Assembly: GCA_018062825.1 (NCBI GenBank)
Contig: JAGORL010000003.1
Span: 72,333 to 136,332 of the forward strand
Reading direction: 5' to 3'
DNA: 64,000 nt
Source of the DNA: Patescibacteria group bacterium
GTDB lineage: Bacteria; Patescibacteriota; Patescibacteriia; UBA9934
A program made the translations under genes and the position numbers. The notes under the pieces are model-generated. The model saw only the letters and a program-made list of their open reading frames with translations. It did not search any database and was not told the origin of the DNA. Below, piece after piece: positions 12,347 to 60,480 of the stretch (the stretch's first letter is position 1; each line of letters opens with the position of its first letter).

Positions 12347-12386
12347 TTCTCCCCAGGTGACTGTGGAAAAACTGCAGATATGTGTA

Positions 12387-12598
12387 CAGTGGATAGCTCG
12401 GGGATAAAGCAGTGGATGAGTGGATGGATAAGTATGGGGATGAGCGTGGGACGAACAAGGGACAAAGGCATGGGCTATGAAACAACTTTGTTTCATACAC
12501 AGGCGACTCCCGCGGTCTTCCCAAACTTCTCCACATCAGGGACAATGGAATCGCTCAATAGACAATGCTTGAAGTGGAGTTATCCATGTCATCCACAG
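12387..12598. promoter_or_regulatory. oriC element 2: DnaA-box-like cluster in the dnaA-dnaN spacer
   Basis: Repeated GTGGATAG, GTGGATGA, TGGATGGATAAG, TTATCCATG and CATCCACAG motifs in a 290-bp non-coding spacer. Confidence 0.55.
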
Positions 12599-12640
12599 AC
12601 TCACAGCTACTATCAGTTTAGTAAATAAATTTATCTCTCT

Positions 12641-20166: not shown

Positions 20167-20607
20167 TTATCCCTCCATGAGGATGCGAACGATATTGTTT
20201 AGGTCCATGGAGGCAAGATTTTTAGGTACGGTATCAAGTAGGGCTTTTTTAACGTCAGCGTGTAGAGCGTCTATCAGGATGTTTTTATTGATTTCTGGAA
20301 CACAGATAAGCACTTCTTCAACTCCATCGTGATCAATCATGGTGCGCAGTTTTTCTGAGATCGCGCTATAGAGTGTGACGAGACGGTTGTCTTTCATGTC
20401 ATCAATATCTTTTTTTGTTGAAGCATGCGCAGCTGTGATTCTCTCGGCGTGTTCAAACTCAGGTGATGCTAAGCCTTCTACTTCTTCAATTTCGCGGTGG
20501 TGCGCAATAAGTAGCCGACACCGTTCGTTGTTGGTGAGTGCGATAACGGTCTTTTTCTCAAAGGCTTTGTAGTGATCCGAGATGCGCATATAGATAAAGT
20601 GTACCAT
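20167..20607 (-). CDS. Host_attach (PF10116)-like protein, eRF1-like fold
   Basis: C-terminal pattern LICVPEINKNILIDALHADVKKALLDTVPKNL parallels the family's conserved block (VVAPPKTLGELRK..HKEV....L..KDLT). Matched from memory, not by search. Confidence 0.45.
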   Translation of the reverse strand: MVHFIYMRISDHYKAFEKKTVIALTNNERCRLLIAHHREIEEVEGLASPEFEHAERITAAHASTKKDIDDMKDNRLVTLYSAISEKLRTMIDHDGVEEVLICVPEINKNILIDALHADVKKALLDTVPKNLASMDLNNIVRILMEG

Positions 20608-31946: not shown

Positions 31947-32113
31947 GTTTTTATCGTGCGTCATTACTGTTTCTGTTTCAAACTATAGCTATTTGCTATG
32001 TTGTGAATTGCTTGATGAACTTGCTTTTAAGCGACATTACTTTAGTGCAGGTGACGTAATTTCGCAACTATGGTTTTATGGTGAGGTTTCATTTGCGTTA
32101 TACTTTTACTACT

Positions 32114-32977
32114 ATGCAGATTCGCAAAGCGATTATTCCGGTAGCTGGTATGGGGACACGATTCCTGCCCGCAACCAAGGCTCAGCCAAAAGAAATGTTG
32201 CCGGTCGTTGATAAGCCTGTTATTCAATACATCGTTGAAGAGGCGGTGGCGGCTGGTATTGAGGAGATTATTTTCGTGACCGCCATGGGCAAGAGGGCGC
32301 TTGAAGATCATTTTGATCGTAACTTTGAACTTGAGTATCGCTTAGAGCAAAAGAAGAAGCTTAAGGAGCTTGAGAGTGTGCAGCGTATAGGTAAGCTTGC
32401 TCGTTTTGCTTTCGTTCGTCAGCAAAAGCCACTTGGGGATGGTCATGCAATTTTAGCGGCTGCGCCTTTTGTTGGGAAAGATGAAGCGGTAGCTGTGTTA
32501 TTTGGTGATGACATTATTACCGGGAAACAACCGGCTATTGGTCAACTTATTGATGTTTACAATAAGTATCAGGATCCCGTGGTAGCTATTCAGGAGGTGC
32601 CGAAACAAAGTGTTTCTAGTTATGGTGTTATTGACGGTACAAAATTGGATGCGCATACCTGGCAGGTTCAGGATTTTATGGAGAAGCCTGATCCGAAAGA
32701 CGCTCCATCAAACTTGGCTGCTGTCGGAAGATATGTGATTACGCCAGAGATCATGCAGATTTTGGTTGATCAAAAACCGGGTAAGGATGGCGAGATTCGT
32801 TTAGCTGATGCCTTCATGACGTTTTTGAAGGAGCGACCAATGTATGGCTGTAAGTTTGAAGGCAATCGATATGATTGCGGAAATAAGTTGCAGTTCATCA
32901 TTGCACAAATTGAACTTGGACTTGAGCACGGTGAGGTGAAGGCTGAGCTTGCTAAGTACTTGAAGAAGATGAAATAG
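32114..32977 (+). CDS. galU: UTP-glucose-1-phosphate uridylyltransferase
   Basis: N-terminal signature KAIIPVAGMGTRFLPATKAQPKEMLPVVDKPVIQY and the expected length. Confidence 0.85.
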   Translation: MQIRKAIIPVAGMGTRFLPATKAQPKEMLPVVDKPVIQYIVEEAVAAGIEEIIFVTAMGKRALEDHFDRNFELEYRLEQKKKLKELESVQRIGKLARFAFVRQQKPLGDGHAILAAAPFVGKDEAVAVLFGDDIITGKQPAIGQLIDVYNKYQDPVVAIQEVPKQSVSSYGVIDGTKLDAHTWQVQDFMEKPDPKDAPSNLAAVGRYVITPEIMQILVDQKPGKDGEIRLADAFMTFLKERPMYGCKFEGNRYDCGNKLQFIIAQIELGLEHGEVKAELAKYLKKMK

Positions 32978-33027
32978 GGTATAGAGAAGGGAGTAGGAAG
33001 TAGTTAGTAGGGGGGGGTAGTGCGAGG

Positions 33028-33062
33028 AAAAGAGCACGCGACGATGAGTCGGTGCTCTTTTG
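33028..33062 (+). terminator. Intrinsic terminator of galU
   Basis: AAAAGAGCACGCGACGATGAGTCGGTGCTCTTTTG. Confidence 0.6.
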
Positions 33063-33082
33063 ATTTCTGTTACAATACAATC

Positions 33083-34477
33083 ACTATGCGCATGCGAAGA
33101 ATTTTTGGCGCCGTCCTTCTTGGCGCAACACTTGTCATGGTAGGTGCTGGCTGTAGTGGTGATAGTGCAAGTACGGCAAATACCACTAAGCCGGTAACGC
33201 TTACCTATTGGCGAGTATTTGATGATGAAGATGCATTTACTGAGATCATTTCTTCTTATCGAGTTTTGCATCCGAACGTAAAGATTGAGTATCGCAAACT
33301 CCGTGCAGAAGAATATGAGGAAGAGCTTTTGAAGGCGCTCGCAAAAGGTGAGGGGCCAGATATTTTTTCTGTACACAATTCACGTGTAGCTGAGTTCCAG
33401 GATCTTTTGCAGCCAATGCCGGCATCCGTACAGATTTCTACGCTTGAAGTTCAGGGATCGCTTCGTAAAGAGACGGTCTATGTACCAAAGACTGTTACGT
33501 TGTATACGCAAAAGCAATTGGAACAGCAATTTGTTGATGTTGTAGCTGAGGACGCGGTATTGCCGTATCAGCCTGATGAAGATACGCCTGCTACTGACCG
33601 TATTTACGGTTTGCCACTTTCGGTAGACACAATGGCGCTTTATTACAATCAGGATCTTCTTAACGCGGCTGGCATTGCCGAGCCACCAACTACTTGGGAT
33701 GCGTTTCAAGAGGCAGTGATTAAGCTTACAAAGATTGATGCCAATGGTCAGGTTACGCAGTCCGGTGCCGCGCTTGGTACATCTGAGAACGTTGAGCGAT
33801 CAAGTGATATTTTGGCACTTCTCATGATGCAGAATGGCACGCAGATGACTGATGATCGGGGGCGGGTTGCCTTTCAGACTATTCCGGTAGGAACGGAGCG
33901 CGGTGTTTTTCCAGCGCTTGATGCTACGCGTTTCTATACTGATTTTGCCAACCCAGCTAAAGAAACATATACCTGGAACGATAGCTTCCCGAATTCGTTT
34001 GATGCTTTTACTCGTGGTCAAACGGCTTTTTTCCTTGGTTATAGTTATCATGCGCCACTTATTACCGCGGCTAATCCGAAATTACGTTTTGAAGTTAGTG
34101 CGGCGCCACAGATTTCCGGTGGTCGACAGGTTAATTATGCTAACTACTGGATAGAAGGCGTTTCTAAGAATACAGATGCGAGTAACTATGCTTGGGATTT
34201 TCTCGCGTACGCTGCTAAGGCTGAGAATGTAGCTTCATATCTTGAGGAGGCCCAAAAACCTACGGCGCTTAGGAGCGTGATCAATGCGCAGCTTGAGGAT
34301 GATTTTCTAGGTGTATTTGCTTCCCAGATTCTTCTTGCAGATTCTTGGTATCACGGAAAGGATGCGCTTGCAGCTGAACAGGCGTTCTATGATCTTATTG
34401 ATGCGATTTTGAACGGCTCAGCTGAACCGGAAGATGAGGTAGAGTCAGCGGCTCGTATTATTTCGCAGACGTATTAG
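33083..34477 (+). CDS. ABC transporter extracellular solute-binding lipoprotein (family 1, sugar-type)
   Basis: Lipoprotein signal peptide (LVMVGAGCSG) followed by an SBP_bac_1-like fold. Start placed at a Met preceding the signal peptide. Confidence 0.7.
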   Translation, partial: TMRMRRIFGAVLLGATLVMVGAGCSGDSASTANTTKPVTLTYWRVFDDEDAFTEIISSYRVLHPNVKIEYRKLRAEEYEEELLKALAKGEGPDIFSVHNSRVAEFQDLLQPMPASVQISTLEVQGSLRKETVYVPKTVTLYTQKQLEQQFVDVVAEDAVLPYQPDEDTPATDRIYGLPLSVDTMALYYNQDLLNAAGIAEPPTTWDAFQEAVIKLTKIDANGQVTQSGAALGTSENVERSSDILALLMMQNGTQMTDDRGRVAFQTIPVGTERGVFPALDATRFYTDFANPAKETYTWNDSFPNSFDAFTRGQTAFFLGYSYHAPLITAANPKLRFEVSAAPQISGGRQVNYANYWIEGVSKNTDASNYAWDFLAYAAKAENVASYLEEAQKPTALRSVINAQLEDDFLGVFASQILLADSWYHGKDALAAEQAFYDLIDAILNGSAEPEDEVESAARIISQTY

Positions 34478-34548: not shown

Positions 34549-35067
34549 ATGCAGGGTCGACGCGCCTTTTTTTTCATCCCGATTGTTCTTGGCTTGTTCT
34601 TTAGTTTTGTACCGGTGCAAGTTCAAGCGCAGGGTGAGGTTGAATCAGAATTTCAGGATATTTTAAGTCAGGGAATTGTCTTTGCCGGCATCTGTGATAG
34701 CGCCACGGCTCCATGTGCGTGTCGGGATGTTGGCCAGTGTCAGTTGGATGATATTTTGCAGTTATTTGTGAATGTGAGCATTCTGATTCTTGGTATCAGC
34801 GGATCGATCGTGCTTCTCATGTTTGTATGGGGTGGCTTGCAGTGGATTTTATCGCAAGGCAATCCAAGCATGATTGAAAGTGGTAAAAATACCATGATTA
34901 ATGCTGCTATTGGTCTGGCGATTATTTTCGGCTCGTACGCTATGATCAATATTCTTATTTCTGTAGCGACCGGGCAAGGTCCGGCAGCTTCGCCAACGAT
35001 TGAGGGCACTATTGAAGGCGCGGTTCCTGGTAGTAATCCTGGTGCGGTAGTTAATACCGTTGAATAA
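34549..35067 (+). CDS. TrbC/VirB2-like pilin-family protein, paralog 1 of 6
   Basis: Signal peptide, Cys-containing variable region, then conserved TM1-(WGGLQWILSQGNP)-basic loop-TM2, shared with the next five genes. Confidence 0.6.
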   Translation: MQGRRAFFFIPIVLGLFFSFVPVQVQAQGEVESEFQDILSQGIVFAGICDSATAPCACRDVGQCQLDDILQLFVNVSILILGISGSIVLLMFVWGGLQWILSQGNPSMIESGKNTMINAAIGLAIIFGSYAMINILISVATGQGPAASPTIEGTIEGAVPGSNPGAVVNTVE

Positions 35068-35071
35068 ACAT

Positions 35072-35434
35072 ATGATGCTTTTAAAACGTATTTCACAAAT
35101 TGGCGTTTCCATTGGATTGTTTCTGTTCCCATTTTTTGTTCACGCTCAGGCGGTGACACTCATTAACCCACTTGGTGAAGGGAGCAATGATCCACGTTTA
35201 CTTATTGGACGTTTGATTGCGGCGGTTCTTTCGATTGTTGGTTCTTTGGCATTACTTATGTTCCTGTATGGTGGTCTTATTTGGATTACCTCAATGGGTG
35301 AGAGTGATAAGGTTATGAAGGGTAAGAAGATCCTTATTTGGGCTACCCTTGGCCTGGTTATTGTGGCGAGCGCCTACGTAATTGTGAATGCCATTATTCT
35401 TGGTTTGACGACGGGAAATGTAACCACCACTTAG
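35072..35434 (+). CDS. TrbC/VirB2-like pilin-family protein, paralog 2
   Basis: LLMFLYGGLIWITSMGESDKVMKGKKILIWATLGLVIVASAY; same architecture. Confidence 0.6.
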   Translation: MMLLKRISQIGVSIGLFLFPFFVHAQAVTLINPLGEGSNDPRLLIGRLIAAVLSIVGSLALLMFLYGGLIWITSMGESDKVMKGKKILIWATLGLVIVASAYVIVNAIILGLTTGNVTTT

Positions 35435-35505
35435 CAGCAATGAGGAATCATACACACCTACCGTCAGAGTCTAGGAATTCATGTATAATATAAAAAAATT
35501 AACCT

Positions 35506-35928
35506 ATGCCTATGATCAAGTCTTTGGTACGTCTCGGGATGAGTGTTGCGCTCGGTTTGGCACTTGCTCTTCCGTTCCTCCGTTTGGCTCCATCAGCAAT
35601 CTCGGTTGCTCATGCTCAGCCACTTGATTCGGGAGATTTCTTGTCAGATGACTTTTCTGACTCTACGGGCCTTGGTCAGAGTGACTTGCAGACGACAATT
35701 GGTAATTTGATCCGCGTTGCCCTTGGTTTTCTTGGTGTGATCGCGGTATGTATCATCTTGTTCGGTGGTTTTAAGTGGATGGTAGCAGGTGGTAATGATG
35801 AGAAGGTTGCCGAGGCTAAGCGCTTGCTCATTGCTGGCGTTATCGGTCTAGCCATTATTTTGTCCGCTTACGCAATTGCTTCGTTCCTACTCACTTCAAT
35901 CTTGAACGCCTCAACCGATTCGCTCTAG
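35506..35928 (+). CDS. TrbC/VirB2-like pilin-family protein, paralog 3
   Basis: ILFGGFKWMVAGGNDEKVAEAKRLLIAGVIGLAIILSAYAI. A TATAAT box lies upstream, so it may have its own promoter. Confidence 0.6.
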   Translation: MPMIKSLVRLGMSVALGLALALPFLRLAPSAISVAHAQPLDSGDFLSDDFSDSTGLGQSDLQTTIGNLIRVALGFLGVIAVCIILFGGFKWMVAGGNDEKVAEAKRLLIAGVIGLAIILSAYAIASFLLTSILNASTDSL

Positions 35929-35974
35929 GTTTTTTACTAACGGTTCTCCTGAACAAATGTTCAGGGGTTCCGCT

Positions 35975-36388
35975 ATGAAGAAACTCGCTGTTGCAGCACT
36001 ATTTTCGATCGGCTTTTTGCTGCCGGGTATTTCTTTGGCACAGCTTTCTCCAGGTGATAACTATGGTTTGAATGATACGGCGCAGGCCGGATACGGTGAG
36101 GGCGTGACCAGCAATAGCAATATCGGCACTTATCTTGGTACTTATATTATTCAGCCAGTACTTGGTTTGATGGGTATTTTGTTTCTTTTACTGACAGTGT
36201 ATGCGGGATTTTTGTGGATGACAGCCCAAGGTGATGATAGCAAGGTTAAGAAAGCAAAAGATATTTTGGTGGCGGCGGTTATTGGGGCGGTGATCATGGC
36301 TTCAGCTTATGTTCTGACTGCGGCAGTTTTTAACGCCTTGAGCACGGGTAGTATTACAGCTGCGGCAACTACTTCTACCCAAGAATAG
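35975..36388 (+). CDS. TrbC/VirB2-like pilin-family protein, paralog 4
   Basis: LLLTVYAGFLWMTAQGDDSKVKKAKDILVAAVIGAVIMASAYVL. Confidence 0.6.
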   Translation: MKKLAVAALFSIGFLLPGISLAQLSPGDNYGLNDTAQAGYGEGVTSNSNIGTYLGTYIIQPVLGLMGILFLLLTVYAGFLWMTAQGDDSKVKKAKDILVAAVIGAVIMASAYVLTAAVFNALSTGSITAAATTSTQE

Positions 36389-36391
36389 TGT

Positions 36392-36787
36392 ATGAAAATT
36401 TCCCGCTCACTTATTTTGACACTTATTTTATCAGTTGTTTTATTTATTCCAGCCGTTGTTTTTGGGCAGTTTACTGACGGACTACCTGACGTCGCTGACG
36501 CCACTCAAGGTGGTTATAATGCAAATTCTAGCTTAGCCGGTACGATTGGTTTACTTATTCAAGCATTTTTGGGAATTTTGGGAGTAATTTTTTTACTCCT
36601 TACTATTTATGCTGGCTTCCTTTGGATGACGGCAGCTGGTGATGATGGCAAGGTCAAGCAGGCCAAAGAAACGCTCGTGCGAGCAGTGATAGGTATGGTG
36701 ATCGTGCTCGCTGCCTACAGTATTACTTTCTTTGTGCTGGGTTATGTTGCAGCTGCCACGTCACAGACGATTATTGGAGGTGTTTAA
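36392..36787 (+). CDS. TrbC/VirB2-like pilin-family protein, paralog 5
   Basis: LLLTIYAGFLWMTAAGDDGKVKQAKETLVRAVIGMVIVLAAYSI. Confidence 0.6.
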   Translation: MKISRSLILTLILSVVLFIPAVVFGQFTDGLPDVADATQGGYNANSSLAGTIGLLIQAFLGILGVIFLLLTIYAGFLWMTAAGDDGKVKQAKETLVRAVIGMVIVLAAYSITFFVLGYVAAATSQTIIGGV

Positions 36788-36822
36788 TAATGTGATACAC
36801 TATATTCATAATTAAAAGCACT

Positions 36823-37215
36823 ATGATTTCTACTTTAAAGAAGGTGTTCGTAGCTGGTGCGCTTGCTCTTTTGCCGTTTGGCGTTGCCGCTGTTCCTAGC
36901 GTGCACGCACAAAGTGCACTTGAGTCTACTTTGGATGATGTTCAGGCAGAATCAGGATTAGGTGATCAGGATTTGACTACCACCCTTGGTATGCTTATCC
37001 AGGCCATGCTTGGACTCCTGGGTGTTATTTTCCTGGTACTTATCATCTACGCTGGTTTCCTTTGGATGACAGCGGGTGGTGATGAGGGCAAGGTTAGCAC
37101 GGCTAAGGACATCATGATCCGTTCGGTGGTGGGCTTGGTGATCTTGCTCTCAGCGTACGCGATCAGTAGCTTCGTTATTGATGCGCTTATCGAGGCGACC
37201 GGTTCCGGTTCCTAA
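36823..37215 (+). CDS. TrbC/VirB2-like pilin-family protein, paralog 6
   Basis: LVLIIYAGFLWMTAGGDEGKVSTAKDIMIRSVVGLVILLSAYAI. Confidence 0.6.
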   Translation: MISTLKKVFVAGALALLPFGVAAVPSVHAQSALESTLDDVQAESGLGDQDLTTTLGMLIQAMLGLLGVIFLVLIIYAGFLWMTAGGDEGKVSTAKDIMIRSVVGLVILLSAYAISSFVIDALIEATGSGS

Positions 37216-37222
37216 TCAATTT

Positions 37223-37254
37223 AAAAAGACCTGCGGAAACCGCGGGTCTTTTTT
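37223..37254 (+). terminator. Intrinsic terminator closing the pilin array
   Basis: AAAAAGACCTGCGGAAACCGCGGGTCTTTTTT. It is nearly identical to the terminator at 50054-50085. Confidence 0.7.
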
Positions 37255-37305
37255 GTTTTATAAATAGCGAACGCCCCAGTTCTCCGAAGAGAATGGGGCG
37301 TGAGA

Positions 37306-37911
37306 TCACCGAGTGGGACACCGGCCGAGATTGAACTCGGAGCGGCGGCTCCACAGAGTGCTGTCCTTCATGATGTGGGCGAGGCTGTTGCAGCTCCCGA
37401 CCTTGTTGCCGGCAACCGTGGCGGGGCCAGCAGCGGTAACGGCCATGGAGTTCAGTGCGAACACTGCGATCCCGTTGTATACGCTGATGGTCTTAGAGCT
37501 TTCCGGCACAGCGCCACCGTAGGTGGAACCGGACAGTTGGACGCGCGGCGTGGACAGGATGGTCCAGGCCGAGCGACCGCTCGGAATGCAACTCACGAAT
37601 TCGGTGGGTGACACCCAGAGGCCGATGGCGATCCGGGTTTCGATCCCGCTTTGTTCGGTGAGGGTCATGACGGCGCTCGGATTTCCCGATCCGTCGAGGT
37701 TCGGGCGCAGACACCACTGGGTGGTGTTGCGCACCTCGAGACACAGCGGGTTGCTGTCGCAGCCCGCGGGCGGCGAGAGCACCCACTCGTTCTGGACGGT
37801 GGGGATGAACAACACCTGCGCGTTGTTCGTGCTTCCGGCACCCGCCAGGGCCGCCGTGGGGGCGAAGAAGGCGAGGACGAGGGTGAACAACGCGATGAGG
37901 GTGCGGATCAT
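37306..37911 (-). CDS. Secreted Cys-containing protein A of the GC-rich island
   Basis: Signal peptide MIRTLIALFTLVLAFFAPTAALA, six Cys, GC3-rich codons, and a GGAGG Shine-Dalgarno before the ATG at 37911. The track ORF extends further to 37962. Confidence 0.6.
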   Translation of the reverse strand: MIRTLIALFTLVLAFFAPTAALAGAGSTNNAQVLFIPTVQNEWVLSPPAGCDSNPLCLEVRNTTQWCLRPNLDGSGNPSAVMTLTEQSGIETRIAIGLWVSPTEFVSCIPSGRSAWTILSTPRVQLSGSTYGGAVPESSKTISVYNGIAVFALNSMAVTAAGPATVAGNKVGSCNSLAHIMKDSTLWSRRSEFNLGRCPTR

Positions 37912-38006
37912 GGGAACCTCCGAACTTGAAAGGGCGAGTGAACTCTGAGGCCTCGGCATCATGATTGATGCTGGTGCCAGTGGAGTGCCCTTCTTGCGAA
38001 AGGCGA

Positions 38007-38090
38007 GTTAGCTAGTTGCGAACGTCCAGGCTCCGTAGAGCATGATGGCTGCGATGGCGAAGAAGAAGATTGTGACGATTGACGCGGTCA
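38007..38090 (-). CDS. 27-aa single-TM hydrophobic peptide (MTASIVTIFFFAIAAIMLYGAWTFATS)
   Basis: Hand-found ORF between island genes B and A on the same strand, preceded by an AAGGAA Shine-Dalgarno 5 nt upstream. Below the ORF-track size cutoff. Confidence 0.35.
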
Positions 38091-38193
38091 TGTGGTTCCT
38101 TAGGTGTGTAACCCGCAGACAGCTCATCTTGAGTGATGAACGGTCAGTAGGGTGCCCGTTCGGACTTCTTGGAAGAAGCCGAACGGGACGTAG

Positions 38194-38826
38194 TCACTCT
38201 GCGAGCGCGTCGTTCGCGGCGCGGAGCGAGACCACTTCGCTCTCGAGCTCGCGGACGCGGGCGTCCGTGGCGGAGGAGGTGGTGGTCGACGGCGCGGGCG
38301 AGGCGGGCGGCGGGGTGATCTGGCCCATCGAGGCGGACTGGAACGCGAGCGTTCCCATCTGGCCGAGACCCGGCATGGCCATGCCGGGCATGAACATGCC
38401 GCCGTTGCCAACCGAGATGGCGGCGTACGGGGCGGCCTGGCCGGTGGCGATGAGGTCGCCGTCGGCGTAGGTCGCGACGTTCGCTTCGATGCCCGCGAGG
38501 GAGACGTCACGGCGGGTGCCGGCGTCGACCTGGCGCGTCGCGGCGTCGATGCAGCCGACGCCTTGCCCCATCATCTCGATGGTGTTCTTGGCGCTGACGT
38601 GCTCGGCGTCGATCGTGACACCGCACGCGTTGACCGACACCGTGGGGCGTCCGGTCAGCTGCGTGTTGCTCGTGGCGTCGACTCGGCCGCTGGTCTGCGT
38701 GCGGGGTGCAGCGGGGCTGCGCTCGGCGACCGTTGCGGTCGGGCGGCTGGTCGCGTTCGGGTTGCCACCGGCGAGGGCCGGGGTGGCGAAGGCGACGAGG
38801 GCGGCGAGGGTGATGAAGCGGATCAT
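38194..38826 (-). CDS. Secreted low-complexity protein B of the GC-rich island
   Basis: Signal peptide MIRFITLAALVAFATPALAGG, a Pro/Ala/Thr-rich region, and a C-terminal coiled-coil-like tail. GAGG Shine-Dalgarno before the ATG at 38826. Confidence 0.55.
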   Translation of the reverse strand: MIRFITLAALVAFATPALAGGNPNATSRPTATVAERSPAAPRTQTSGRVDATSNTQLTGRPTVSVNACGVTIDAEHVSAKNTIEMMGQGVGCIDAATRQVDAGTRRDVSLAGIEANVATYADGDLIATGQAAPYAAISVGNGGMFMPGMAMPGLGQMGTLAFQSASMGQITPPPASPAPSTTTSSATDARVRELESEVVSLRAANDALAE

Positions 38827-39203
38827 GGATGACCTCACAGTGGAAGGAGCGGATACTTTACCTGGCAGGTATTAGCCAGTTCAAGTAACACATATTTATA
38901 GCACAAATTTTGGAAAAAGTCAAGGGGGTTAGTGAGATAATTTGGCTAATATTAGAAGAAAATGTGAAATCGGAGATCGGGGATCGGAGATGGATTGAAA
39001 TGCTTTTTTGTGATTGCTACACGGAGATTTCTCAACTCGGCATTCAGACTCGTTCGGGATCGCAAGACGATACATGTAATTGTTTGTTGAGACCTTCCCG
39101 AACGAAAGTTAGGGATCTTGGTTATGTGTTGGCTCTTGGCACGAAGGCTAGACCCCTCACTTGCGTTCGGGGAAGTTTTCAATACTTTTAATAATGGCAT
39201 TTT

Positions 39204-39221
39204 ATAGCTAATATTAGCTAT
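39204..39221. promoter_or_regulatory. 18-bp perfect palindrome ATAGCTAATATTAGCTAT (candidate operator) upstream of the island gene C promoter
   Basis: Perfect dyad. Related sites occur at 14521-14537 (TTGGCTAATATTAGCTA), 38941-38955 (half-site) and 6411-6430, all in divergent promoter regions. Confidence 0.5.
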
Positions 39222-39239
39222 TTTTGTTTACTTATCCCA

Positions 39240-39268
39240 TTGACAAAACGTCGATTTTATGCTACTAT
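39240..39268 (+). promoter_or_regulatory. Sigma70-type promoter TTGACA-17-TACTAT for island gene C
   Basis: Consensus -35 and near-consensus -10 with a 17-nt spacer, ~85 nt upstream of the ATG at 39354. The hexamers match the rRNA promoter at 57222-57250. Confidence 0.6.
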
Positions 39269-39353
39269 ATAGTGTTCGCAAGTGCGGCACATCGCCCATT
39301 TCGCGAAAGCAACTTCACAATCTGCAGTCACAAAGTGACAATCGGAGATCGCC

Positions 39354-41384
39354 ATGGCCACGGAGTCTACTGGAGACAATCGTCGTATCGTTGAGCAGAC
39401 GCTTGGCGAGATCGGAGAAGAGTGGCTCGAGACGATCGGTAAGGGGATCAATCCCATGCCGTTCCTCGCGACGCCCCACTTCTGGGGTCCGCCGGCGCGA
39501 GCAATCGCGAAGCGCGTGGCTAAGCATCCGAACACGATCCTGGGCGGCTTTTCTTTTCTGGGCGCTGTTGCGCAGGAAAAGTTGCCCTTCGGTCGGGATG
39601 TCAACCTCATCGTCGCCACGATCTTGCGCGGTATCCCGCGTCTCGCTGAGAATTCGTTGGCGGCACATGGTGTGACCGCTGACAACATCGAACAGAAGAT
39701 TGTCGAGTGGGCTGTGCAGCTCGCGAAGGAGACCCCCATGACGACGACCATCGAGTCGAAGCCGGAGGCTCCCGCGACGCCCTCGGCACCCGCGTTCGAG
39801 CTCACGCAGGAGCAGGGCGATGCCCTCGGGCTTCTGCACCGCATCCTTGAGGTTCGCCTCACGGATGCGTTCAACTTCCCGACCGAGCCGCGGCGGTACC
39901 AGGCGCTGTTGCGCCGGCTGTCGGCGAGCCCGATCGCGGTTCAGTTCCTCCCGAAGCTCAAGAAGAAGGAGATCGATGCCACCCTCGCGCACTTGCGCAC
40001 CCTCCAGACCTGGACGGCGCCCAACGTGAGCGAGGACCGGCCGACCGACGAGATGGCCGCGCAGGCGCGGATCGAGGTGGAGAAGGTGCTCTGGCGCTAC
40101 ATGCGCTTCGAGGCCGCCCTCTTCGCCCATGATCACCACCTGAACGGCGCCTATTCGATCGTCATCGGGGCGCTCGATCGTCTCGATGCGAACGTGACGG
40201 ACGAACAGCGTCGCCAGTTCCGGGAGTTTTGGGAGCGTCAGCTCCAGAACCTCTCGGAGGCCGGCATCCCCGGCATGACCCGTGACTTCGCCGAGAACTC
40301 GGCGCGAGTCATCCGGGAACAGGCGGAGCGGCTGTTCGGCTTCACGGTCGACGTCGGCCGACAGGTGTTCGAGTTTGCGGCCTGGGCGTTTGTGGGGGTC
40401 AATAGCCTCCTCATCGCCGGGATCGCGCTCTGCCTCATGGGTATCACCATGGTGGCCGAGCAGACGTTCGTGGCTCCGGCGCTTCTCGGACTCCTCTTCG
40501 TGATCCAGGTCGGAATCGCTGGGCGTCTCCTCACGAGCTCTCTGAGCACGGCGTGGAAGGCGGCCATCGTCATCGCGGCGGCAGCGCTCCTCGTGTTCCA
40601 GGTGTCGTTCGTGTCTGCGCTTCTTGCGCACCCGAGCGTTCTCCTCTTCCAGGTGGGGATCTGCCTCATGTGGATCTGGTACTTCTTCGTCGGACTGTTC
40701 GACGCGGTCGTCAACGGCTTTGCGGCCTTGACGCGCGGAGAGCGGTTCGGCCGGGATGCCGGAACGATCACGAGGGCGTGGATCGCGACGCGCAATGCCA
40801 TCATCGGCCGCACGGTCGAGGGGCAGGGCACGGCGGATGTGCCGGTACAGTTCCGGTGGTTCCGCAATTGGTCGCCGACCGTCGTCATCATCGTCTCCCT
40901 CGTGGGTGGTGTTGGTAGCGCGACGCAGGCGTTCTGGTTCGGTGCTTCGGGCGGCTTGTTCTCGGCGCTCATGTTGCTTGGCTCCGGCTGGCTCACGGGC
41001 GGTTCCGCGATCATGTACACCCGTGGCAATCGGCAGTTGACGGCAGCGGACAAGGATAACTTCTGGTCGCTCGACTTGCGGCAGAAGTACGCCAAGCGGG
41101 CGTTCCTCGTTCCCGGTGTCCTCGGCCAGGTGATGCTCGTCGTTGGCCTTGCGACCCTCTTCGTTCCTTGGTTCAAGGGCGAGGCTCTCGGTCAGCAGGT
41201 CACGGTGGCGCAGCACGTAGTGGTCGAGCCCGCAGCTAAGCAGGAAGCGACGCCCGTCATCTCGACGAGCGACGCGGCCTGCGAGAAGGTCGAGCGAATG
41301 CTCCAGGCGTCTCCGGACGTTTGCACGCTCTCGCCCGGCCTCAAGAGCTGCGCCACTGCCAAGCGGTGCGGACTGCTGAAGTAA
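39354..41384 (+). CDS. 676-aa polytopic membrane protein of the GC-rich island (soluble N-terminal ~330 aa plus ~8 TM helices)
   Basis: Strong GC3 codon bias (ctc/gcg/acg/atc/gag) unlike the flanks, GGAGA Shine-Dalgarno, and no family motif recognised. The antisense 690-aa ORF is a high-GC artefact. Confidence 0.65.
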   Translation: MATESTGDNRRIVEQTLGEIGEEWLETIGKGINPMPFLATPHFWGPPARAIAKRVAKHPNTILGGFSFLGAVAQEKLPFGRDVNLIVATILRGIPRLAENSLAAHGVTADNIEQKIVEWAVQLAKETPMTTTIESKPEAPATPSAPAFELTQEQGDALGLLHRILEVRLTDAFNFPTEPRRYQALLRRLSASPIAVQFLPKLKKKEIDATLAHLRTLQTWTAPNVSEDRPTDEMAAQARIEVEKVLWRYMRFEAALFAHDHHLNGAYSIVIGALDRLDANVTDEQRRQFREFWERQLQNLSEAGIPGMTRDFAENSARVIREQAERLFGFTVDVGRQVFEFAAWAFVGVNSLLIAGIALCLMGITMVAEQTFVAPALLGLLFVIQVGIAGRLLTSSLSTAWKAAIVIAAAALLVFQVSFVSALLAHPSVLLFQVGICLMWIWYFFVGLFDAVVNGFAALTRGERFGRDAGTITRAWIATRNAIIGRTVEGQGTADVPVQFRWFRNWSPTVVIIVSLVGGVGSATQAFWFGASGGLFSALMLLGSGWLTGGSAIMYTRGNRQLTAADKDNFWSLDLRQKYAKRAFLVPGVLGQVMLVVGLATLFVPWFKGEALGQQVTVAQHVVVEPAAKQEATPVISTSDAACEKVERMLQASPDVCTLSPGLKSCATAKRCGLLK

Positions 41385-41388
41385 CAAA

Positions 41389-41419
41389 TACCTCCTTGCC
41401 CACGCGGGGCGAGGAGGTA
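41389..41419 (+). terminator. Terminator-like hairpin after gene C
   Basis: TACCTCCTTGCCCACGCGGGGCGAGGAGGTA, GC-rich with a weak U-tract. Confidence 0.4.
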
Positions 41420-41506: not shown

Positions 41507-42736
41507 TCACTTACGTTCGGGAAGGGGAGTTGATTGAGCGCGACTTAACATCATTGCAAAGAGTAGTGCGCCGATGATTGCGAGATCATTTTTCATTAAT
41601 GGGACGTCTACCAAGCCGTGAATACAAAGTGTGCACAAGGCAGCAAAAGCGGCTAAGGTTAGTGGATCATGATTGCTTGACCTGACGACTTTTGCGGTTG
41701 CGAGCATAAATGCGATGAGCGCGATGAGGCCAAGAGCACCGAGCTCGACCCAGACGTTTAGGATGATGTTGTGCGGGTATTGGAAGGTCTCAAATAGAGT
41801 TGCATCATGGTATGGAGTAATGGCGATTGGGAAGCCGTTTAAGCCAGCACCTTTGAGCGGGTGATCTTTGAGAAGTTCAAAGGTTTCTTGCCAGGTATGG
41901 AGGCGCGCTTGGCCTGACCAGTCACGGAGCAGGATTTTTTCTCGAGTGATTGGGATGAGTAAAGCAGTGACGCCAAGAAGACAGGTCGCTCCAATAAGGG
42001 CGATTTTTTGTTTGCTTGAAATGTTGGCGCATAGGAGGGAGCACAGCATGCCGATTGGAATGGCGATGAGTGCGGCTTCGGTTTGGGCAAGAAGAATTGC
42101 GAGTATGCCGATGGCGCTCAAGCTAAGAAGCGACTTTCGATGCTTTTTTGTGAGGATGGCAAGAGTAGTAGTTAGCGCGACGATGGGCGCTACAAAAAGG
42201 CCAAGTGCGTTTGGATACTCAAAGAAGCCGGTAGCACGACGCTCGATATCCCACGGGAGCGGAATTCCGAATCCGGTTGTCACTTGAAATAAGGCAAAGA
42301 CGGTCATGATGCCGACACTTGCCCCAAGAGCGCCAATGGCCTCTAGATAGTCATTTTTTGCTTTCCACGTGACGCGCATCATTATGAGTACGGCCATTGG
42401 TTCTAGGTAAAATGCTTTCCAAATGCCGAGTGCGGAAAAGATGTCGGGAGCGAGGGCGGCGCTGACTGAGGCTGCGGCAATAAGTAGTAGGAGAGGGGTG
42501 CGATATGGACCAAGAATCTGCAAGGGAAAGAGTTTCCAGGCTTGGTACTTGATCGTAAAAATGATGATGCTAGCAATAACGAGGAGCTCAAGCAGGGTTG
42601 TTGGGATTGGACCAATGTTAAAACGCAGGAGATATGTAGGTAGTAGCGCCATGAGTACCTTGAGGGCCAGTGGAAAATCACGCCAAGCAATAATGGCGTA
42701 TCCAATGACGATCAGTGCGGCCAAGATGAGCAACAT
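41507..42736 (-). CDS. O-antigen ligase/Wzy-like polytopic membrane protein
   Basis: ~10 TM helices and a periplasmic loop with YPHNIILNVWVELGALG, typical of the Wzy_C/O-antigen ligase family. Confidence 0.55.
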   Translation of the reverse strand: MLLILAALIVIGYAIIAWRDFPLALKVLMALLPTYLLRFNIGPIPTTLLELLVIASIIIFTIKYQAWKLFPLQILGPYRTPLLLLIAAASVSAALAPDIFSALGIWKAFYLEPMAVLIMMRVTWKAKNDYLEAIGALGASVGIMTVFALFQVTTGFGIPLPWDIERRATGFFEYPNALGLFVAPIVALTTTLAILTKKHRKSLLSLSAIGILAILLAQTEAALIAIPIGMLCSLLCANISSKQKIALIGATCLLGVTALLIPITREKILLRDWSGQARLHTWQETFELLKDHPLKGAGLNGFPIAITPYHDATLFETFQYPHNIILNVWVELGALGLIALIAFMLATAKVVRSSNHDPLTLAAFAALCTLCIHGLVDVPLMKNDLAIIGALLFAMMLSRAQSTPLPERK

Positions 42737-42739
42737 AGA

Positions 42740-44176
42740 TTAGCTGGTTCCGGGCGTTGTCGGGAGAAAGAGGAGCTTGATATCTCTTGGCTTAGGTCCG
42801 CCGACAAGAATGAGTGTGCAGCCGTACACGATGACGCCGAGGGCCACTGACATAATGGGGTTTGGCATTGGGAGGAAGAAGATTGCAGTACTCATCGTTA
42901 TGGTGGCAATTAGCGCTCGTAACGCCATGCCAATTTTAGGGAGGGAGCCGGTGGTCTTTGTTACGTAAGTGAAGGCAATAGCAGTAATGAGCACTTCTGA
43001 TACGAGCGTAACGAGGGCGGCTGCCCAGGCACCATACGTTGGAATGAAGGTGATGTATCCAATGATTGAGAGGAGCGCAACGACAAGATAGCCAAGCACC
43101 ATCTGTTTTTGTTTGTTGATCGCGACAATGGCGTGACCGTAGAGGGTATTAAAGAAGACGATAGCGGTTACCGGGCCCATGATCCACTGCAAATGACCGG
43201 CAAGAATGAGGTCTGGTTTTACAAACGTCATTAAGGATGTGCCAACAAGCGCGGCACCGGCGGCAATAGGTAGAGCAAAAATAACAAAGAAATCAAAGGC
43301 GTCTTGCAGGCGCTTATGAAAGAGTTCTTTATTTTTTTGCGTCCATGCTGCCACAAGTAGGGGGAGAATGAGGCCCATAAACGTGATCGGGATCATGGTC
43401 ACTACATCAATTACTTTGTAGGCGGCGCCGTACTGACCAATTTCTTCAGAGGTTCGATTAAAGATCCACATGAAGAAGATGTCGCCTTTGAGATAGATGA
43501 GATTGAAGAGGATAGAGAGTCCGATTGGCCAGCTGCGGGTAATGATTTCTTTCCAGATTTTTAGTTCCATTCGTGGAGTGAAGCGTACGGCATGGATTGC
43601 GAAGCCAACCATGATGACGAGCTGTGCTAGCGCTCCAACAAAAAAGCCGATGGTTGAAAAGATGATCGGTAATTGCCAAAAGCCGGCAAGAGCAATAACG
43701 CCGAGGGCCAGTGAGCGATTTGCGAGTTCAGCGGCAACAGGAATTACGAGTGTGAGGCGTTTTTGAAAGACCCCGATGAAGGTTTGCGCCACGGCTGAAC
43801 AGAAGTACGAACCGGTTGCTACAAAGATGAGCGGCAGGATGTTTTCGCTTGGAAGAAAGAGAGCGCCGATCGGGGCAAGTCCCATGAAAATAAGGGCGCT
43901 TATGACACGAAGTGAGAGTAGGTTGCCGAGAATTCGTTTTTCATCTGCTTTATGCTCAGAAATCATCTGTGCGGTGGTGAGCGTGAGTCCGAAATCGACG
44001 ATGATCGCAAAGATGGAGACGTAGGTGGTGGCGGTTGTTATTTCTCCGTATCCGCTCGTGCCAAAGATATGCAATAGGAGATAGAAGGTGGCTAGTCCAA
44101 ATATGGTACTGATCACTTTGCCCGCAACTTGAAGGGCGGTGCTTTTGGCGAGAGCATTTGTTACTTGGTGCGACAT
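42740..44176 (-). CDS. Polysaccharide biosynthesis flippase (MOP/Wzx-like)
   Basis: ~12-14 TM helices, Polysacc_synt-like N-terminus. Confidence 0.6.
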   Translation of the reverse strand: MSHQVTNALAKSTALQVAGKVISTIFGLATFYLLLHIFGTSGYGEITTATTYVSIFAIIVDFGLTLTTAQMISEHKADEKRILGNLLSLRVISALIFMGLAPIGALFLPSENILPLIFVATGSYFCSAVAQTFIGVFQKRLTLVIPVAAELANRSLALGVIALAGFWQLPIIFSTIGFFVGALAQLVIMVGFAIHAVRFTPRMELKIWKEIITRSWPIGLSILFNLIYLKGDIFFMWIFNRTSEEIGQYGAAYKVIDVVTMIPITFMGLILPLLVAAWTQKNKELFHKRLQDAFDFFVIFALPIAAGAALVGTSLMTFVKPDLILAGHLQWIMGPVTAIVFFNTLYGHAIVAINKQKQMVLGYLVVALLSIIGYITFIPTYGAWAAALVTLVSEVLITAIAFTYVTKTTGSLPKIGMALRALIATITMSTAIFFLPMPNPIMSVALGVIVYGCTLILVGGPKPRDIKLLFLPTTPGTS

Positions 44177-50085: not shown

Positions 50086-50305
50086 ATGCTGAGGTTGGCA
50101 CTGGCGCTGCTGCTCCGGCCATCTGTTTGCGAATCCAGGAGATTCCGGAGCGATTACCCGCTCGGTACTGGTCTTTAGCGATTGAGACTACGAACTGCTG
50201 AAGTTCCCATTCGATATCTTCCGGCATGTCGTACTTGCGCATGAGGGCTTGGAATTTATCAGTGAGTTCAGTGAACCAGCGACCGGTTGTTTTTTCATCG
50301 GACAT
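50084..50305 (-). CDS. Small hypothetical protein (73 aa) translationally coupled to the upstream LTD protein gene
   Basis: ATG overlaps the stop of the 800-aa gene by 11 nt; charged soluble product, no motif recognised. Confidence 0.45.
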   Translation of the reverse strand: MSDEKTTGRWFTELTDKFQALMRKYDMPEDIEWELQQFVVSIAKDQYRAGNRSGISWIRKQMAGAAAPVPTSA

Positions 50306-52634: not shown

Positions 52635-52839
52635 AGAAAGACGGTGTCTTTCTTGACGATTGAAGTGAGGTGATCGATCAAAGTCCCGGCGCCACAAACG
52701 AAAAACCCCACCAGCCTTGCCGAAGCCTCGGAAGGAAGGTGGGGAGTTCGTTTGTTATTTCTATTAAGCGTTACCTAGCTGTGATCGACAAGATATAGAT
52801 GTGGACAACTGAGAAACTTTCAATGTTTTATTGTGCTTT

Positions 52840-57250: not shown

Positions 57251-57408
57251 TCCGCCGCACTGTTCGTGAACAAAAGTTCACTTCAGAAGAGCTTTTTGGA
57301 CGAAAGTCCAGCGCGCCCTTCTGAACGTTTACAACTAAATATTCTACGAAGAAAAAGCAAACGCACTGATATCATGACCAAAAGGTCATGCGTACTCAGT
57401 GAATGGAG

Positions 57409-60418
<3,010 letters not shown>

Positions 60419-60480
60419 TCCATTCACTGAGTGCGTTAAATCGCACGCGTTTGCTAAACGAATAAAAAAACATTTCATTG

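What the first reader, a model, noticed from the sequence alone, without database searches (positions are those of the whole stretch)
34549..37215. Tandem array of six paralogous TrbC/VirB2-like pilin genes with hypervariable N-terminal regions and a conserved two-helix C-terminal core
Six consecutive ~125-170-aa genes each encode a signal peptide, a divergent exposed segment, then a near-identical TM1-YAGFLWMTAxGDDxKVxxAK-TM2 module. This architecture resembles VirB2/TrbC conjugative pilins and the CPR T4SS_pilin family (recalled from memory, unverified). No VirB4/VirB6-type genes lie in the window. Diversification concentrated in the exposed part fits surface or antigenic variation or host-specific adhesion. 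The array ends exactly where the GC-rich island begins.
Basis: partly seen in the sequence, partly recalled or inferred. Interest (0 to 1): 0.75.

Follow-up and report, generated by a model that had tools for sequence, protein, structure and literature searches.

The report
Six-gene VirB2-like pilin array, Patescibacteria
Six neighbouring genes in an ultrasmall (Patescibacteria) bacterium encode related but distinct small pilin-like membrane proteins; such arrays are already described in this phylum, and here the six look like a fixed set of specialised parts, not a surface-variation repertoire.

Summary
The six genes are real (34549-37215, + strand). All six pass Pfam's cut-off for PF18895 T4SS_pilin. 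Each has a signal peptide ending [A/G]|Q, a divergent exposed segment, a two-helix hydrophobic hairpin and a short tail. The window is chromosomal DNA of a Patescibacteria MAG (KBC55_03570), about 22 kb from dnaA.

Tandem arrays of sequence-divergent VirB2-like pilins are published for this phylum: 441 arrays of 2-11 genes, and an essential pilin series in Southlakia epibionticum, described in a later review as six pilins. This is a new member of a known kind.

- The "near-identical" core holds only for genes 4-6. Core identity is 26-62%, and synonymous sites between paralogs are saturated.
- Antigenic variation is not supported. Orthologous arrays keep the same six genes in the same order. 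dN/dS is 0.04-0.10 in the core and the exposed segment. Each paralog keeps its own conserved exposed motif.

Additional results:
- No VirB4 or VirD4 was found in the window, or among large Walker-A ORFs within 10 kb of 79 related arrays.
- A galU-solute-binding-protein pair lies directly upstream in 39 of 54 relatives.
- The GC-rich "island" is a conserved, fast-evolving three-gene block with GC3 of 0.83-0.92. It remains unexplained.

The parts
32078..32977 (+). galU (UTP-glucose-1-phosphate uridylyltransferase); conserved upstream neighbour of the SBP-pilin unit
   Evidence: NCBIfam TIGR01099 scores 353 bits against a cut-off of 326.8. Pfam NTP_transferase also matches. A homolog lies about 1.4 kb upstream of the array in most related loci.
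33020..34477 (+). Orphan carbohydrate-type solute-binding protein (SBP_bac_1) with a lipoprotein-like signal, directly upstream of the array
   Evidence: Pfam PF01547, E 2.5e-25. There are only weak NCBIfam matches to carbohydrate SBPs. An SBP homolog ends within 1 kb of the first pilin gene, on the same strand, in 39 of 54 related loci. No ABC importer permease was found in the window.
34549..35067 (+). Pilin paralog p1 (172 aa): long exposed segment with four Cys and a 32-aa C-terminal tail
   Evidence: PF18895, 38.4 bits. The orthologs keep the motif C...CxCRDxGxC and a C-terminal T-T-E. The p1 type is the best hit to p1 in 17 of 23 other six-gene arrays.
35072..35434 (+). Pilin paralog p2 (120 aa; alternative TTG start at 35060)
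   Evidence: PF18895, 41.2 bits. The motif VTLINPLG, directly after the signal peptide, is conserved in orthologs.
35512..35928 (+). Pilin paralog p3 (138 aa; alternative ATG at 35506); the most conserved paralog
   Evidence: PF18895, 41.8 bits. TrbC PF04956 scores 20.1 bits, below its cut-off. p3 is 99% identical to its L004 ortholog, with dN 0.003. The motif DFGDxTGLGQxDL is conserved.
35975..36388 (+). Pilin paralog p4 (137 aa; alternative ATG at 35957)
   Evidence: PF18895, 32.1 bits. It carries the YAGFLWMTAQGDDSKVKKAK core. It is 76-77% identical to its L004 ortholog, with the differences in the signal, exposed segment and tail.
36392..36787 (+). Pilin paralog p5 (131 aa) = MBP9828208.1 / KBC55_03570
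   Evidence: PF18895, 39.1 bits. NCBIfam NF045849 scores 41.4 bits against a cut-off of 40. It is an exact match to the NCBI protein. The AF2 model of the mature part has pLDDT 79.7, with helices 23-55 and 60-103.
36823..37215 (+). Pilin paralog p6 (130 aa) = MBP9828209.1 / KBC55_03575
   Evidence: PF18895, 41.7 bits. NF045849 scores 39.6 bits. It is 95% identical to its L004 ortholog.
37223..37253 (.). Bidirectional intrinsic terminator that closes the pilin transcription unit and the convergent isl1 gene
   Evidence: It has a 14-bp stem with 7 G-C pairs and a 3-nt loop, with an A-run before and a T-run after.
37306..37911 (-). isl1: secreted protein of unknown function; first gene of the GC3-rich companion block
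   Evidence: GC3 is 0.84. No Pfam, NCBIfam, PHROG or PADLOC match. It is present in independent assemblies L001-L005. Ortholog dN/dS is 0.14-0.35. It is 28% identical over 92 aa to the gene at the same position in L007.
38194..38826 (-). isl2: secreted Ala/Pro/Thr-rich protein of unknown function, GC3-rich
   Evidence: GC3 is 0.92. No family match. Ortholog dN/dS is 0.67.
39354..41384 (+). isl3: 676-aa all-helical protein whose C-terminal half is rich in hydrophobic, TM-like stretches; lineage-restricted, GC3-rich (KBC55_03590)
   Evidence: GC3 is 0.83. Only itself was found among 5.8 billion proteins. Two weak relatives were found among 1.84 billion representatives. The single-sequence AF2 model is unusable, pLDDT 42.5. 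A protein of similar size sits at the same position in L007, L016, L019, L026 and the 586-kb JGI contig.

Best explanation
This is a chromosomal, origin-proximal operon of six ancient, non-redundant VirB2-like pilin paralogs (Pfam PF18895) in a Patescibacteria bacterium whose nearest named relatives are labelled Uhrbacteria and Magasanikbacteria.

Proposed mechanism:
- Each product is exported by Sec and cleaved by signal peptidase I after [A/G], leaving an N-terminal Gln (inferred).
- The product sits in the membrane as a two-helix hairpin, with its paralog-specific N-terminal segment and short tail outside (inferred).
- The six subunits then build one pilus-like or conduit-like surface structure, in the way major and minor pilins do (inferred). 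They are not alternative antigenic versions.
- Assembly is presumably driven by the phylum's monoderm-type type IV secretion system, encoded elsewhere in the genome (inferred).
- The structure serves contact with, or uptake from, a host cell (inferred). The tightly linked galU and carbohydrate-type binding protein point towards sugar capture or envelope glycan chemistry.

Shown here: family membership, topology features, operon layout, age of the duplications, positional orthology, purifying selection and conserved neighbours.
For: - Family: all six proteins pass the PF18895 cut-off. p5 passes NF045849 'pilin-like conjugal transfer protein', and p6, p3 and p4 fall just below it. Profile-profile alignment to authentic VirB2 is in register, with pairwise E 0.002.
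- Topology: each protein has a signal-like segment plus two TM segments. The AF2 model shows a hairpin, helices 23-55 and 60-103, pLDDT above 90 in the core. The [A/G]-Q junction is invariant in the six, and A-Q is also invariant in authentic VirB2.
- One transcription unit: gaps between genes range from an 8-bp overlap (with the TTG start of p2) to 71 bp, with a strong terminator only after p6.
- Old, fixed set: pS between paralogs is 0.53-0.98, and no DNA repeat exceeds 26 nt. The same six genes occur in the same order in L004 and, as far as that short contig reaches (p2-p6), L005. Five- to six-gene arrays with the same flanks occur in more distant genomes. The positional best-hit matrix is strongly diagonal.
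- Purifying selection: pooled ortholog dN/dS is 0.04-0.05 in the core and 0.06-0.10 in the exposed segment. The exposed motifs are paralog-specific and conserved.
- Precedent: an essential series of predicted pilins lies inside the Southlakia epibionticum T4SS cluster (PMC10633639), described in a later review as six VirB2-like pilins (PMC12857230). 441 arrays of 2-11 genes, with mean identity 25%, are reported across the phylum (PMC12102498).
- Linkage: the galU-SBP pair lies directly upstream in 39 of 54 relatives.
Against: - No T4SS machinery gene lies in the 64-kb window.
- None was found among large Walker-A ORFs within 10 kb of 79 related arrays. The link to a T4SS therefore rests on homology and on other lineages.
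- The rest of this genome could not be inspected.
- TrbC/VirB2 (PF04956) is below its cut-off, best 20.1 bits against 27.9. The hhalign probability is only 13.6%.
- Fold searches cannot tell this hairpin from any other helical hairpin.
- No pilus made of such proteins has been seen in any Patescibacteria (reviews).
- dS between the orthologs used is high (0.4-1.6), so dN/dS values are approximate.
Confidence: 0.6

Rival explanations
1. Variation repertoire. The six paralogs are alternative surface variants, used for antigenic variation, evasion of phage or host defences, or matching different host strains. This is what has been proposed for VirB2 paralogs of Bartonella and Anaplasma, and speculated for Patescibacteria arrays.
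For: The exposed segment, signal peptide and tail differ more between paralogs (12-42% identity) than the core does (26-62%). Between orthologs, dN in the exposed segment is 2-4 times that of the core. p4 and p5 differ at 24-33% of their exposed-segment positions between strains in four of six comparisons. The idea is voiced in PMC12102498.
Against: Pooled dN/dS in the exposed segment is 0.06-0.10, which is purifying selection. p2 and p3 exposed segments are identical or nearly so across three strains. Paralog-specific motifs are conserved across genomes whose orthologs share only 40-70% identity. Gene number and order are conserved. There are no silent cassettes, repeats or recombination substrates. 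The genes form a single operon with one terminator.
Confidence: 0.12
2. A T4SS-independent membrane or envelope module. In this clade the pilin-like hairpins work with the co-transcribed solute-binding lipoprotein and GalU. They would act as small membrane subunits of an uptake or envelope-glycan system, not as a secretion-system pilus.
For: galU-SBP adjacency is the most conserved feature of the locus, seen in 39 of 54 loci and often with overlapping or abutting stop and start codons. The SBP has no ABC permease partner in the window or in the three Pfam-annotated related loci. No VirB4 or VirD4 lies within 10 kb of 79 related arrays. A Wzx-type flippase and a Wzy_C protein are nearby in part of the clade.
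Against: The family's only named relatives are conjugation pilin-like proteins. In Saccharibacteria the arrays lie inside the T4SS cluster. In the published survey 1135 of 1948 assemblies have the pilin gene near virB4. Gene adjacency alone does not show a physical or functional link.
Confidence: 0.2
3. Degenerating or redundant duplicates with no distinct roles, retained by chance.
For: The only support is that the proteins are small, hydrophobic and easily duplicated.
Against: All six reading frames are intact. They are under strong purifying selection. They are retained in order across many reduced genomes.
Confidence: 0.02

Closest known systems
VirB2-like pilin arrays of Patescibacteria: the Southlakia epibionticum ML1 series of predicted pilins (Wang et al. 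2023, PMC10633639; counted as six in the review PMC12857230), and the 441 arrays of 2-11 genes surveyed by Quinonero-Coronel et al. 2025 (PMC12102498)
   Same: It is from the same phylum and matches the same Pfam profile (PF18895). The genes are tandem and there are six of them. Pairwise identity is low: 24-45% here, against a mean of 25% and maximum of 54% in the survey. The architecture is structurally conserved, the location is chromosomal and origin-proximal, and no relaxase is nearby.
   Different: The array is not embedded in a T4SS cluster. No VirB4, VirB6 or VirD4 lies in 64 kb, nor among large Walker-A ORFs within 10 kb in 79 relatives. It comes from a different lineage, with relatives labelled Uhrbacteria or Magasanikbacteria, whereas the survey found arrays most abundant in Microgenomatia and Saccharimonadia. 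It is preceded by galU and an orphan SBP and followed by a GC3-rich block. I did not find either neighbourhood mentioned in the parts of those papers that I read.
TrbC/VirB2 conjugative pilins of diderm T4SS (Pfam PF04956; Agrobacterium VirB2)
   Same: The size and layout match: a long signal peptide, cleavage that leaves Gln at the new N-terminus (A-Q), then two hydrophobic helices joined by a short polar loop. Remote profile similarity is weak but in register.
   Different: The proteins score below the PF04956 cut-off. The genes are not next to virB1, virB3 or virB4. The loop is longer and charged (GDDxKVxxAK). There are six paralogs where a classical system has one. The host is a monoderm. 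Cyclisation and pilus formation are untested.
Mbov_0395 family pilin-like conjugal transfer proteins of Mycoplasma ICEs (NCBIfam NF045849)
   Same: The 70-80-aa hairpin core matches. p5 scores above the curated cut-off, and p6, p3 and p4 score below it. Both occur in wall-poor or monoderm lineages whose T4SS are of the MPF-FATA type.
   Different: Those proteins are carried on mobile conjugative elements. The genes here form a chromosomal six-gene array with housekeeping neighbours. Five of the six proteins do not reach the cut-off.
Major plus minor pilin sets of type IV pili and type II secretion (for example pilA with fimU-pilVWXE); a functional analogy only
   Same: Several distinct, individually conserved pilin-like subunits are encoded together and needed together to build one filament.
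   Different: The protein family and assembly machine are unrelated. The analogy is an inference and was not tested.
VirB2 paralog families of Bartonella and Anaplasma, and pilE/pilS-type antigenic variation
   Same: There are multiple pilin paralogs in tandem, with the greatest difference in the exposed parts.
   Different: The paralogs here are ancient, fixed in order and under purifying selection. They have no recombination substrates.

Membership tests
Pfam PF18895 T4SS_pilin | Whole-protein score at or above the curated gathering score (26.6 bits) | tested here: met
   The six proteins score 38.4, 41.2, 41.8, 32.1, 39.1 and 41.7 bits. Precomputed PF18895 hits are also on record for nearly all 102 homologs.
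Pfam PF18895 T4SS_pilin | A core of about 70 aa made of two hydrophobic helices joined by a short polar loop, preceded by a secretion signal | tested here: met
   The Kyte-Doolittle profile shows three hydrophobic segments per protein. AF2 gives helices 23-55 and 60-103 with pLDDT above 90. The signal peptide was judged from its n/h/c regions and the [VS]x[AG]|Q junction. No dedicated predictor was available.
TrbC/VirB2 conjugative pilin (Pfam PF04956) | Score at or above the gathering score (27.9 bits) | tested here: not met
   The best scores are 20.1 bits (p3) and 17.9 bits (p5). The other four proteins give no hit.
TrbC/VirB2 conjugative pilin (Pfam PF04956) | Profile-level homology to authentic VirB2 proteins | tested here: inconclusive
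   hhalign of the 51-sequence family alignment against seven plasmid VirB2/TrbC proteins gave E 0.002 and probability 13.6%. Sixty columns aligned in the expected register.
TrbC/VirB2 conjugative pilin (Pfam PF04956) | Gene embedded in a virB/trb operon, next to virB1, virB3 and virB4 | tested here: not met
   No T4SS family is present in the window. None was found among the large Walker-A ORFs within 10 kb of 79 related arrays.
TrbC/VirB2 conjugative pilin (Pfam PF04956) | Fold match to solved conjugative pilins | tested here: inconclusive
TrbC/VirB2 conjugative pilin (Pfam PF04956) | Processing, membrane extraction and polymerisation into an extracellular pilus | not testable with these tools
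   This needs biochemistry or imaging. It has not been shown for any Patescibacteria.
Patescibacteria VirB2-like pilin array (as defined in PMC12102498) | Two or more VirB2-like genes in tandem, or separated by one gene, in a Patescibacteria genome, with low mutual identity | tested here: met
   There are six tandem genes with 24-45% identity. The NCBI source name is 'Patescibacteria group bacterium'.
Patescibacteria VirB2-like pilin array (as defined in PMC12102498) | A VirB4-type T4SS present in the same genome (near the array in about 58% of published cases) | not testable with these tools
   Only 64 kb of a 197.6-kb contig is available, and virB4 is absent from it. The accession was not found in the stored, truncated supplement.
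NCBIfam NF045849 Mbov_0395 pilin-like conjugal transfer protein | Score at or above the curated cut-off (40 bits) | tested here: inconclusive
   p5 scores 41.4 bits and meets the cut-off. p6 (39.6), p3 (31.1), p4 (26.0) and p2 (17.6) do not, and p1 gives no hit.
Antigenic-variation pilin repertoire | Recent duplication or gene conversion, recombination substrates, and diversifying selection on exposed parts | tested here: not met
   pS between paralogs is 0.53-0.98. No repeat exceeds 26 nt. Ortholog dN/dS is 0.06-0.10 in the exposed segment. Positional orthology and conserved paralog-specific motifs are present.

The most novel reading that the evidence does not exclude
In this Uhrbacteria/Magasanikbacteria-like clade, the conserved unit galU - orphan carbohydrate-binding lipoprotein - six fixed pilin paralogs encodes a heteromeric surface filament or conduit. 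This structure would be dedicated to capturing or importing host-derived sugars. It would be genetically uncoupled from the core T4SS genes. It would be partnered by a fast-evolving three-gene block kept at extreme GC3 (0.83-0.92 in a genome of about 0.45) by some codon-level selection. That would be a new functional class for VirB2-like proteins.
Probability: 0.12. Interest if true: 0.75.

Novelty: new member of a known kind. Interest (0 to 1): 0.35.

Why it matters
VirB2-like pilin arrays are one of the oddest features of Patescibacteria. They sit in a monoderm lineage whose T4SS relatives have no pilus. They are essential in the one species tested, and their role is unknown. This locus does not change the category, but comparing it with relatives narrows the options.

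- The six paralogs behave as a conserved, ordered set under purifying selection. This favours one multi-subunit structure over a variation repertoire.
- The recurrent galU-SBP partner gives the 'uptake conduit' idea a concrete, testable handle.
- The GC3-rich companion block is a separate compositional puzzle that may be worth its own study.

Tried and rejected
I replaced it with ortholog comparisons.
- Exact look-up of p4 with the long start: not on record, because gene callers use a later ATG.
- Profile search of PDB sequences: only spurious hits to designed 'Pizza' repeat proteins, through a 20-residue motif.
- isl3 as a possible VirB6-like channel: no Pfam, PHROG or PADLOC hit, essentially no homologs, and a single-sequence AF2 model at pLDDT 42.5. 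It could be neither supported nor excluded.
- Looking for this genome in the supplement of PMC12102498: accession not found, and the file was truncated when stored.
- The GC-rich island as an assembly chimera or recent foreign insertion: rejected. It occurs in five independent assemblies and at the same position in distant relatives, with dS similar to its neighbours.
- Regional mutational bias as the cause of the high GC: unlikely. The spacer between isl2 and isl3 is only 40% GC, and the excess is concentrated in third codon positions.
Full report
**Observation**

The region 34549-37215 holds six consecutive + strand ORFs of 120-172 aa. The same genes were called in independent assemblies of the same strain. 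A multiple alignment gives each protein the same plan:
- an N-terminal hydrophobic signal-like segment that ends in a small residue followed by an invariant Gln ([VS]x[AG]|Q);
- a divergent polar segment of 17-43 residues;
- two TM-length hydrophobic helices joined by a short charged loop;
- a tail of 8-32 residues.

An AlphaFold2 model of mature p5, built on 51 sequences, gives a long helical hairpin. Its helices span residues 23-55 and 60-103, the mean pLDDT is 79.7, and the core is above 90.

**Family**

All six proteins exceed Pfam's curated cut-off for PF18895 T4SS_pilin, scoring 32.1-41.8 bits against 26.6. The classical TrbC/VirB2 family PF04956 appears only below threshold, at 20.1 and 17.9 bits against 27.9.

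NCBIfam adds a second, independent link. For NF045849, 'Mbov_0395 family pilin-like conjugal transfer protein' of Mycoplasma ICEs, p5 scores 41.4 bits against a cut-off of 40. p6, p3 and p4 score 39.6, 31.1 and 26.0.

I fetched seven authentic VirB2/TrbC genes from plasmids. The profile-profile comparison with them gave a weak alignment in the correct register: E 0.002, probability 13.6%, 60 columns. Authentic VirB2 also has an invariant A-Q at its signal junction. This is a resemblance, not a test.

Sequence and fold searches against solved structures were not diagnostic. Membership of PF18895 is therefore shown. Membership of the classical VirB2 family is not. A remote relationship is plausible.

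**Where it comes from**

p5 is identical to MBP9828208.1 (KBC55_03570) of a 'Patescibacteria group bacterium' MAG, on a 197.6-kb contig. The window is ordinary chromosome. It carries:
- dnaA and dnaN at 10955-13774;
- a 23S-5S rRNA pair and five tRNAs;
- PBP1, RuvB, trigger factor and glutamate dehydrogenase.

The array lies about 22 kb from dnaA, on the strand with positive GC skew. No VirB4, VirD4, TrbL/VirB6 or relaxase family was found in any substantial ORF of the window.

**What is already known**

Tandem arrays of divergent VirB2-like pilins in this phylum are published.
- Wang et al. 2023 describe an essential series of predicted pilins inside the Southlakia epibionticum T4SS cluster (PMC10633639).
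- Quinonero-Coronel et al. 2025 used this same Pfam profile and counted 441 arrays of 2-11 genes in 383 assemblies. Mean identity was 25% and the maximum 54%. The pilin gene lay near virB4 in 1135 of 1948 assemblies (PMC12102498).

My own scan of species-representative genomes returned 79 related loci. Together with the window and the eight loci fetched earlier, 75 of 88 sources carry at least four tandem pilin ORFs, and six is the commonest number. The finding is therefore a new member of a known kind.

Pairwise identity is 24-45% overall and 26-62% in the hairpin core. The YAGFLWMTA...KVxxAK motif is shared only by p4-p6. Synonymous differences between paralogs are saturated (pS 0.53-0.98), and no DNA repeat longer than 26 nt links them. 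These are old duplicates held similar by protein-level selection, not by gene conversion.

**Test of the variation hypothesis**

Two related strains carry orthologous arrays in the same order: L004 with all six genes, and L005, a short contig that begins inside p2, with p2-p6. Amino-acid identity to the L004 orthologs, by paralog:

| Paralog | Identity |
|---|---|
| p1 | 87% |
| p2 | 89% |
| p3 | 99% |
| p4 | 77% |
| p5 | 79% |
| p6 | 95% |

Pooled Nei-Gojobori estimates of dN/dS, by region:

| Region | dN/dS |
|---|---|
| Hairpin core | 0.04-0.05 |
| Exposed segment | 0.06-0.10 |
| Tail | 0.09-0.25 |
| Signal peptide | 0.15-0.30 |

The exposed part does evolve 2-4 times faster than the core, but under clear purifying selection. 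dS is high (0.4-1.6), so these values are approximate.

Across 24 complete six-gene arrays, the best cross-genome hit of each protein falls mostly on the same position in the array. Within the window's subclade this holds almost without exception for p1-p4 and p6.

Each position also keeps its own motif in the 'variable' segment, across genomes whose orthologs share only 40-70% identity:
- p1: C...CxCRDxGxC, plus a C-terminal TTE;
- p2: VTLINPLG;
- p3: DFGDxTGLGQxDL;
- p4: TGLxxT.

The genes are tightly packed and end in a single strong bidirectional terminator. Together this argues for six non-redundant subunits made together, and against a repertoire of alternatives.

**Neighbourhood**

Three points came out of the comparison.

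1. No VirB4/VirD4-like ATPase was found among the ORFs of 450-1200 aa with a Walker A motif within 10 kb of the 79 related arrays. Those ORFs proved to be DnaA, FtsH, SMC, ABC, GTPases and one T2SSE. In this clade the array is genetically separate from the core T4SS genes. The genome as a whole could not be checked.

2. A galU gene (TIGR01099 above cut-off) and an SBP_bac_1 solute-binding protein with a lipoprotein-like signal lie directly upstream.
   - An SBP homolog ends within 1 kb of the first pilin gene, usually within a few tens of bases, on the same strand, in 39 of 54 loci with enough upstream sequence.
   - This holds across genomes of 31-64% GC and arrays of 4-12 genes.
   - No ABC importer permease is in the window or in the three Pfam-annotated relatives.
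   - I did not find this linkage mentioned in the passages of the three papers that I read. It was not checked further.

3. The 'GC-rich island' is a conserved companion block.
   - It consists of two convergent secreted proteins (isl1, isl2) and a divergently transcribed 676-aa helical protein whose C-terminal half has many hydrophobic, TM-like stretches (isl3).
   - Their GC3 is 0.84, 0.92 and 0.83, against 0.36-0.55 in all neighbours. The spacer between isl2 and isl3 is only 40% GC.
   - The same arrangement, with the same GC3 excess (0.76-0.87), sits at the same place in L007. Its pilins are about 50-70% identical to their window orthologs.
   - A GC jump of at least 0.08 follows the array in 14 of 57 loci.
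   - The proteins diverge fast. isl1 is 72% identical where pilins are 77-99%. dN/dS is 0.14-0.67, with dS comparable to neighbours. They are barely alignable between subclades.
   - They have no family or homolog assignments.
   - The block is not an assembly artefact or a recent insertion. What keeps its synonymous sites GC-rich is unexplained.

**Mechanism**

Shown:
- family membership, topology features and operon structure;
- ancient duplication, positional orthology and purifying selection;
- conserved galU-SBP linkage.

Inferred from the family and from published work on Saccharibacteria:
- Sec export and signal-peptidase cleavage to an N-terminal Gln;
- membrane insertion as a hairpin with the specific segment outside;
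- extraction and assembly of the six subunits into one pilus- or conduit-like structure by a T4SS encoded elsewhere;
- a role in host contact or uptake.

The main rival for this clade is that the hairpins work with the SBP independently of any T4SS. The variation repertoire is a weaker rival.

**Verdict**

The kind is already described, and the antigenic-variation reading is not supported. The finding as given is of modest interest. The galU-SBP linkage and the GC3-rich companion block are the parts that merit follow-up.

Noticed in passing
window 37300-41400; also L007 10503-14093: A three-gene block directly after the array has GC3 of 0.83-0.92 in a genome where GC3 is about 0.45. The excess is confined to the coding sequences, since the spacer at 38900-39300 is 40% GC. 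The same block, position and bias recur in a distant relative, and a GC jump follows the array in 14 of 57 related loci. The proteins evolve fast and have no known family. The cause is unknown.
   Followed up: partly
window 32078-34477; related loci L007-L087: galU and an orphan, carbohydrate-type solute-binding lipoprotein sit directly upstream of the pilin array in 39 of 54 related loci. The stop and start codons often abut. No ABC permease is nearby.
   Followed up: partly
window 41507-44176 (- strand): A Wzy_C (O-antigen-ligase-like) protein and a Wzx-type flippase lie 4-7 kb downstream. From memory, the Wzy_C family includes pilin O-oligosaccharyltransferases, and several pilin tails here are Ser/Thr-rich. 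Pilin glycosylation is therefore possible. These genes lie downstream in only 7-8 of 31 relatives.
   Followed up: no
L064 7770-9908; also L029 9818-11623, L035 9848-11665, L042 5252-7069, L052 4555-6411, L062 2468-8218: Some relatives encode large proteins (600-1900 aa) that match the pilin profile. The one scanned with Pfam (L064, 712 aa) has an N-terminal T4SS_pilin hairpin (41.8 bits) followed by a Big_5 Ig-like domain. This suggests pilin-anchored surface proteins.
   Followed up: partly
window 10955-13774: dnaA and dnaN lie about 22 kb upstream of the array, and GC skew is positive from about 12 kb onward. In L048 a DnaA gene lies only about 6 kb from the array. This echoes the published note that T4SS components sit near the origin in some Patescibacteria.
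   Followed up: partly
window 57404-60590: A 23S-5S rRNA pair has no 16S gene in the window. The 23S match spans 3021 nt against a 2925-position model, so it may carry a small insertion.
   Followed up: no
L009, L010, L013, L016 and many other loci: Many species-representative MAGs whose loci look like Patescibacteria (pilin arrays with the same synteny) are titled 'uncultured Gammaproteobacteria bacterium'. One is titled Acutalibacteraceae and one Kapaibacterium. These are probably placeholder or mis-binned labels.
   Followed up: no
L004 3205-3837: The gene caller on record placed the isl1 ortholog on the wrong strand. GC-rich DNA here gives long ORFs on both strands, as also seen at window 39315-41387 (-) against 39354-41384 (+).
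   Followed up: yes
window 50295-52697 (-) and 20167-20607 (-): There is an 800-aa protein with two Lamin Tail Domains, and a small baeRF-family (release-factor-like) protein. Both are unusual but were not studied.
   Followed up: no
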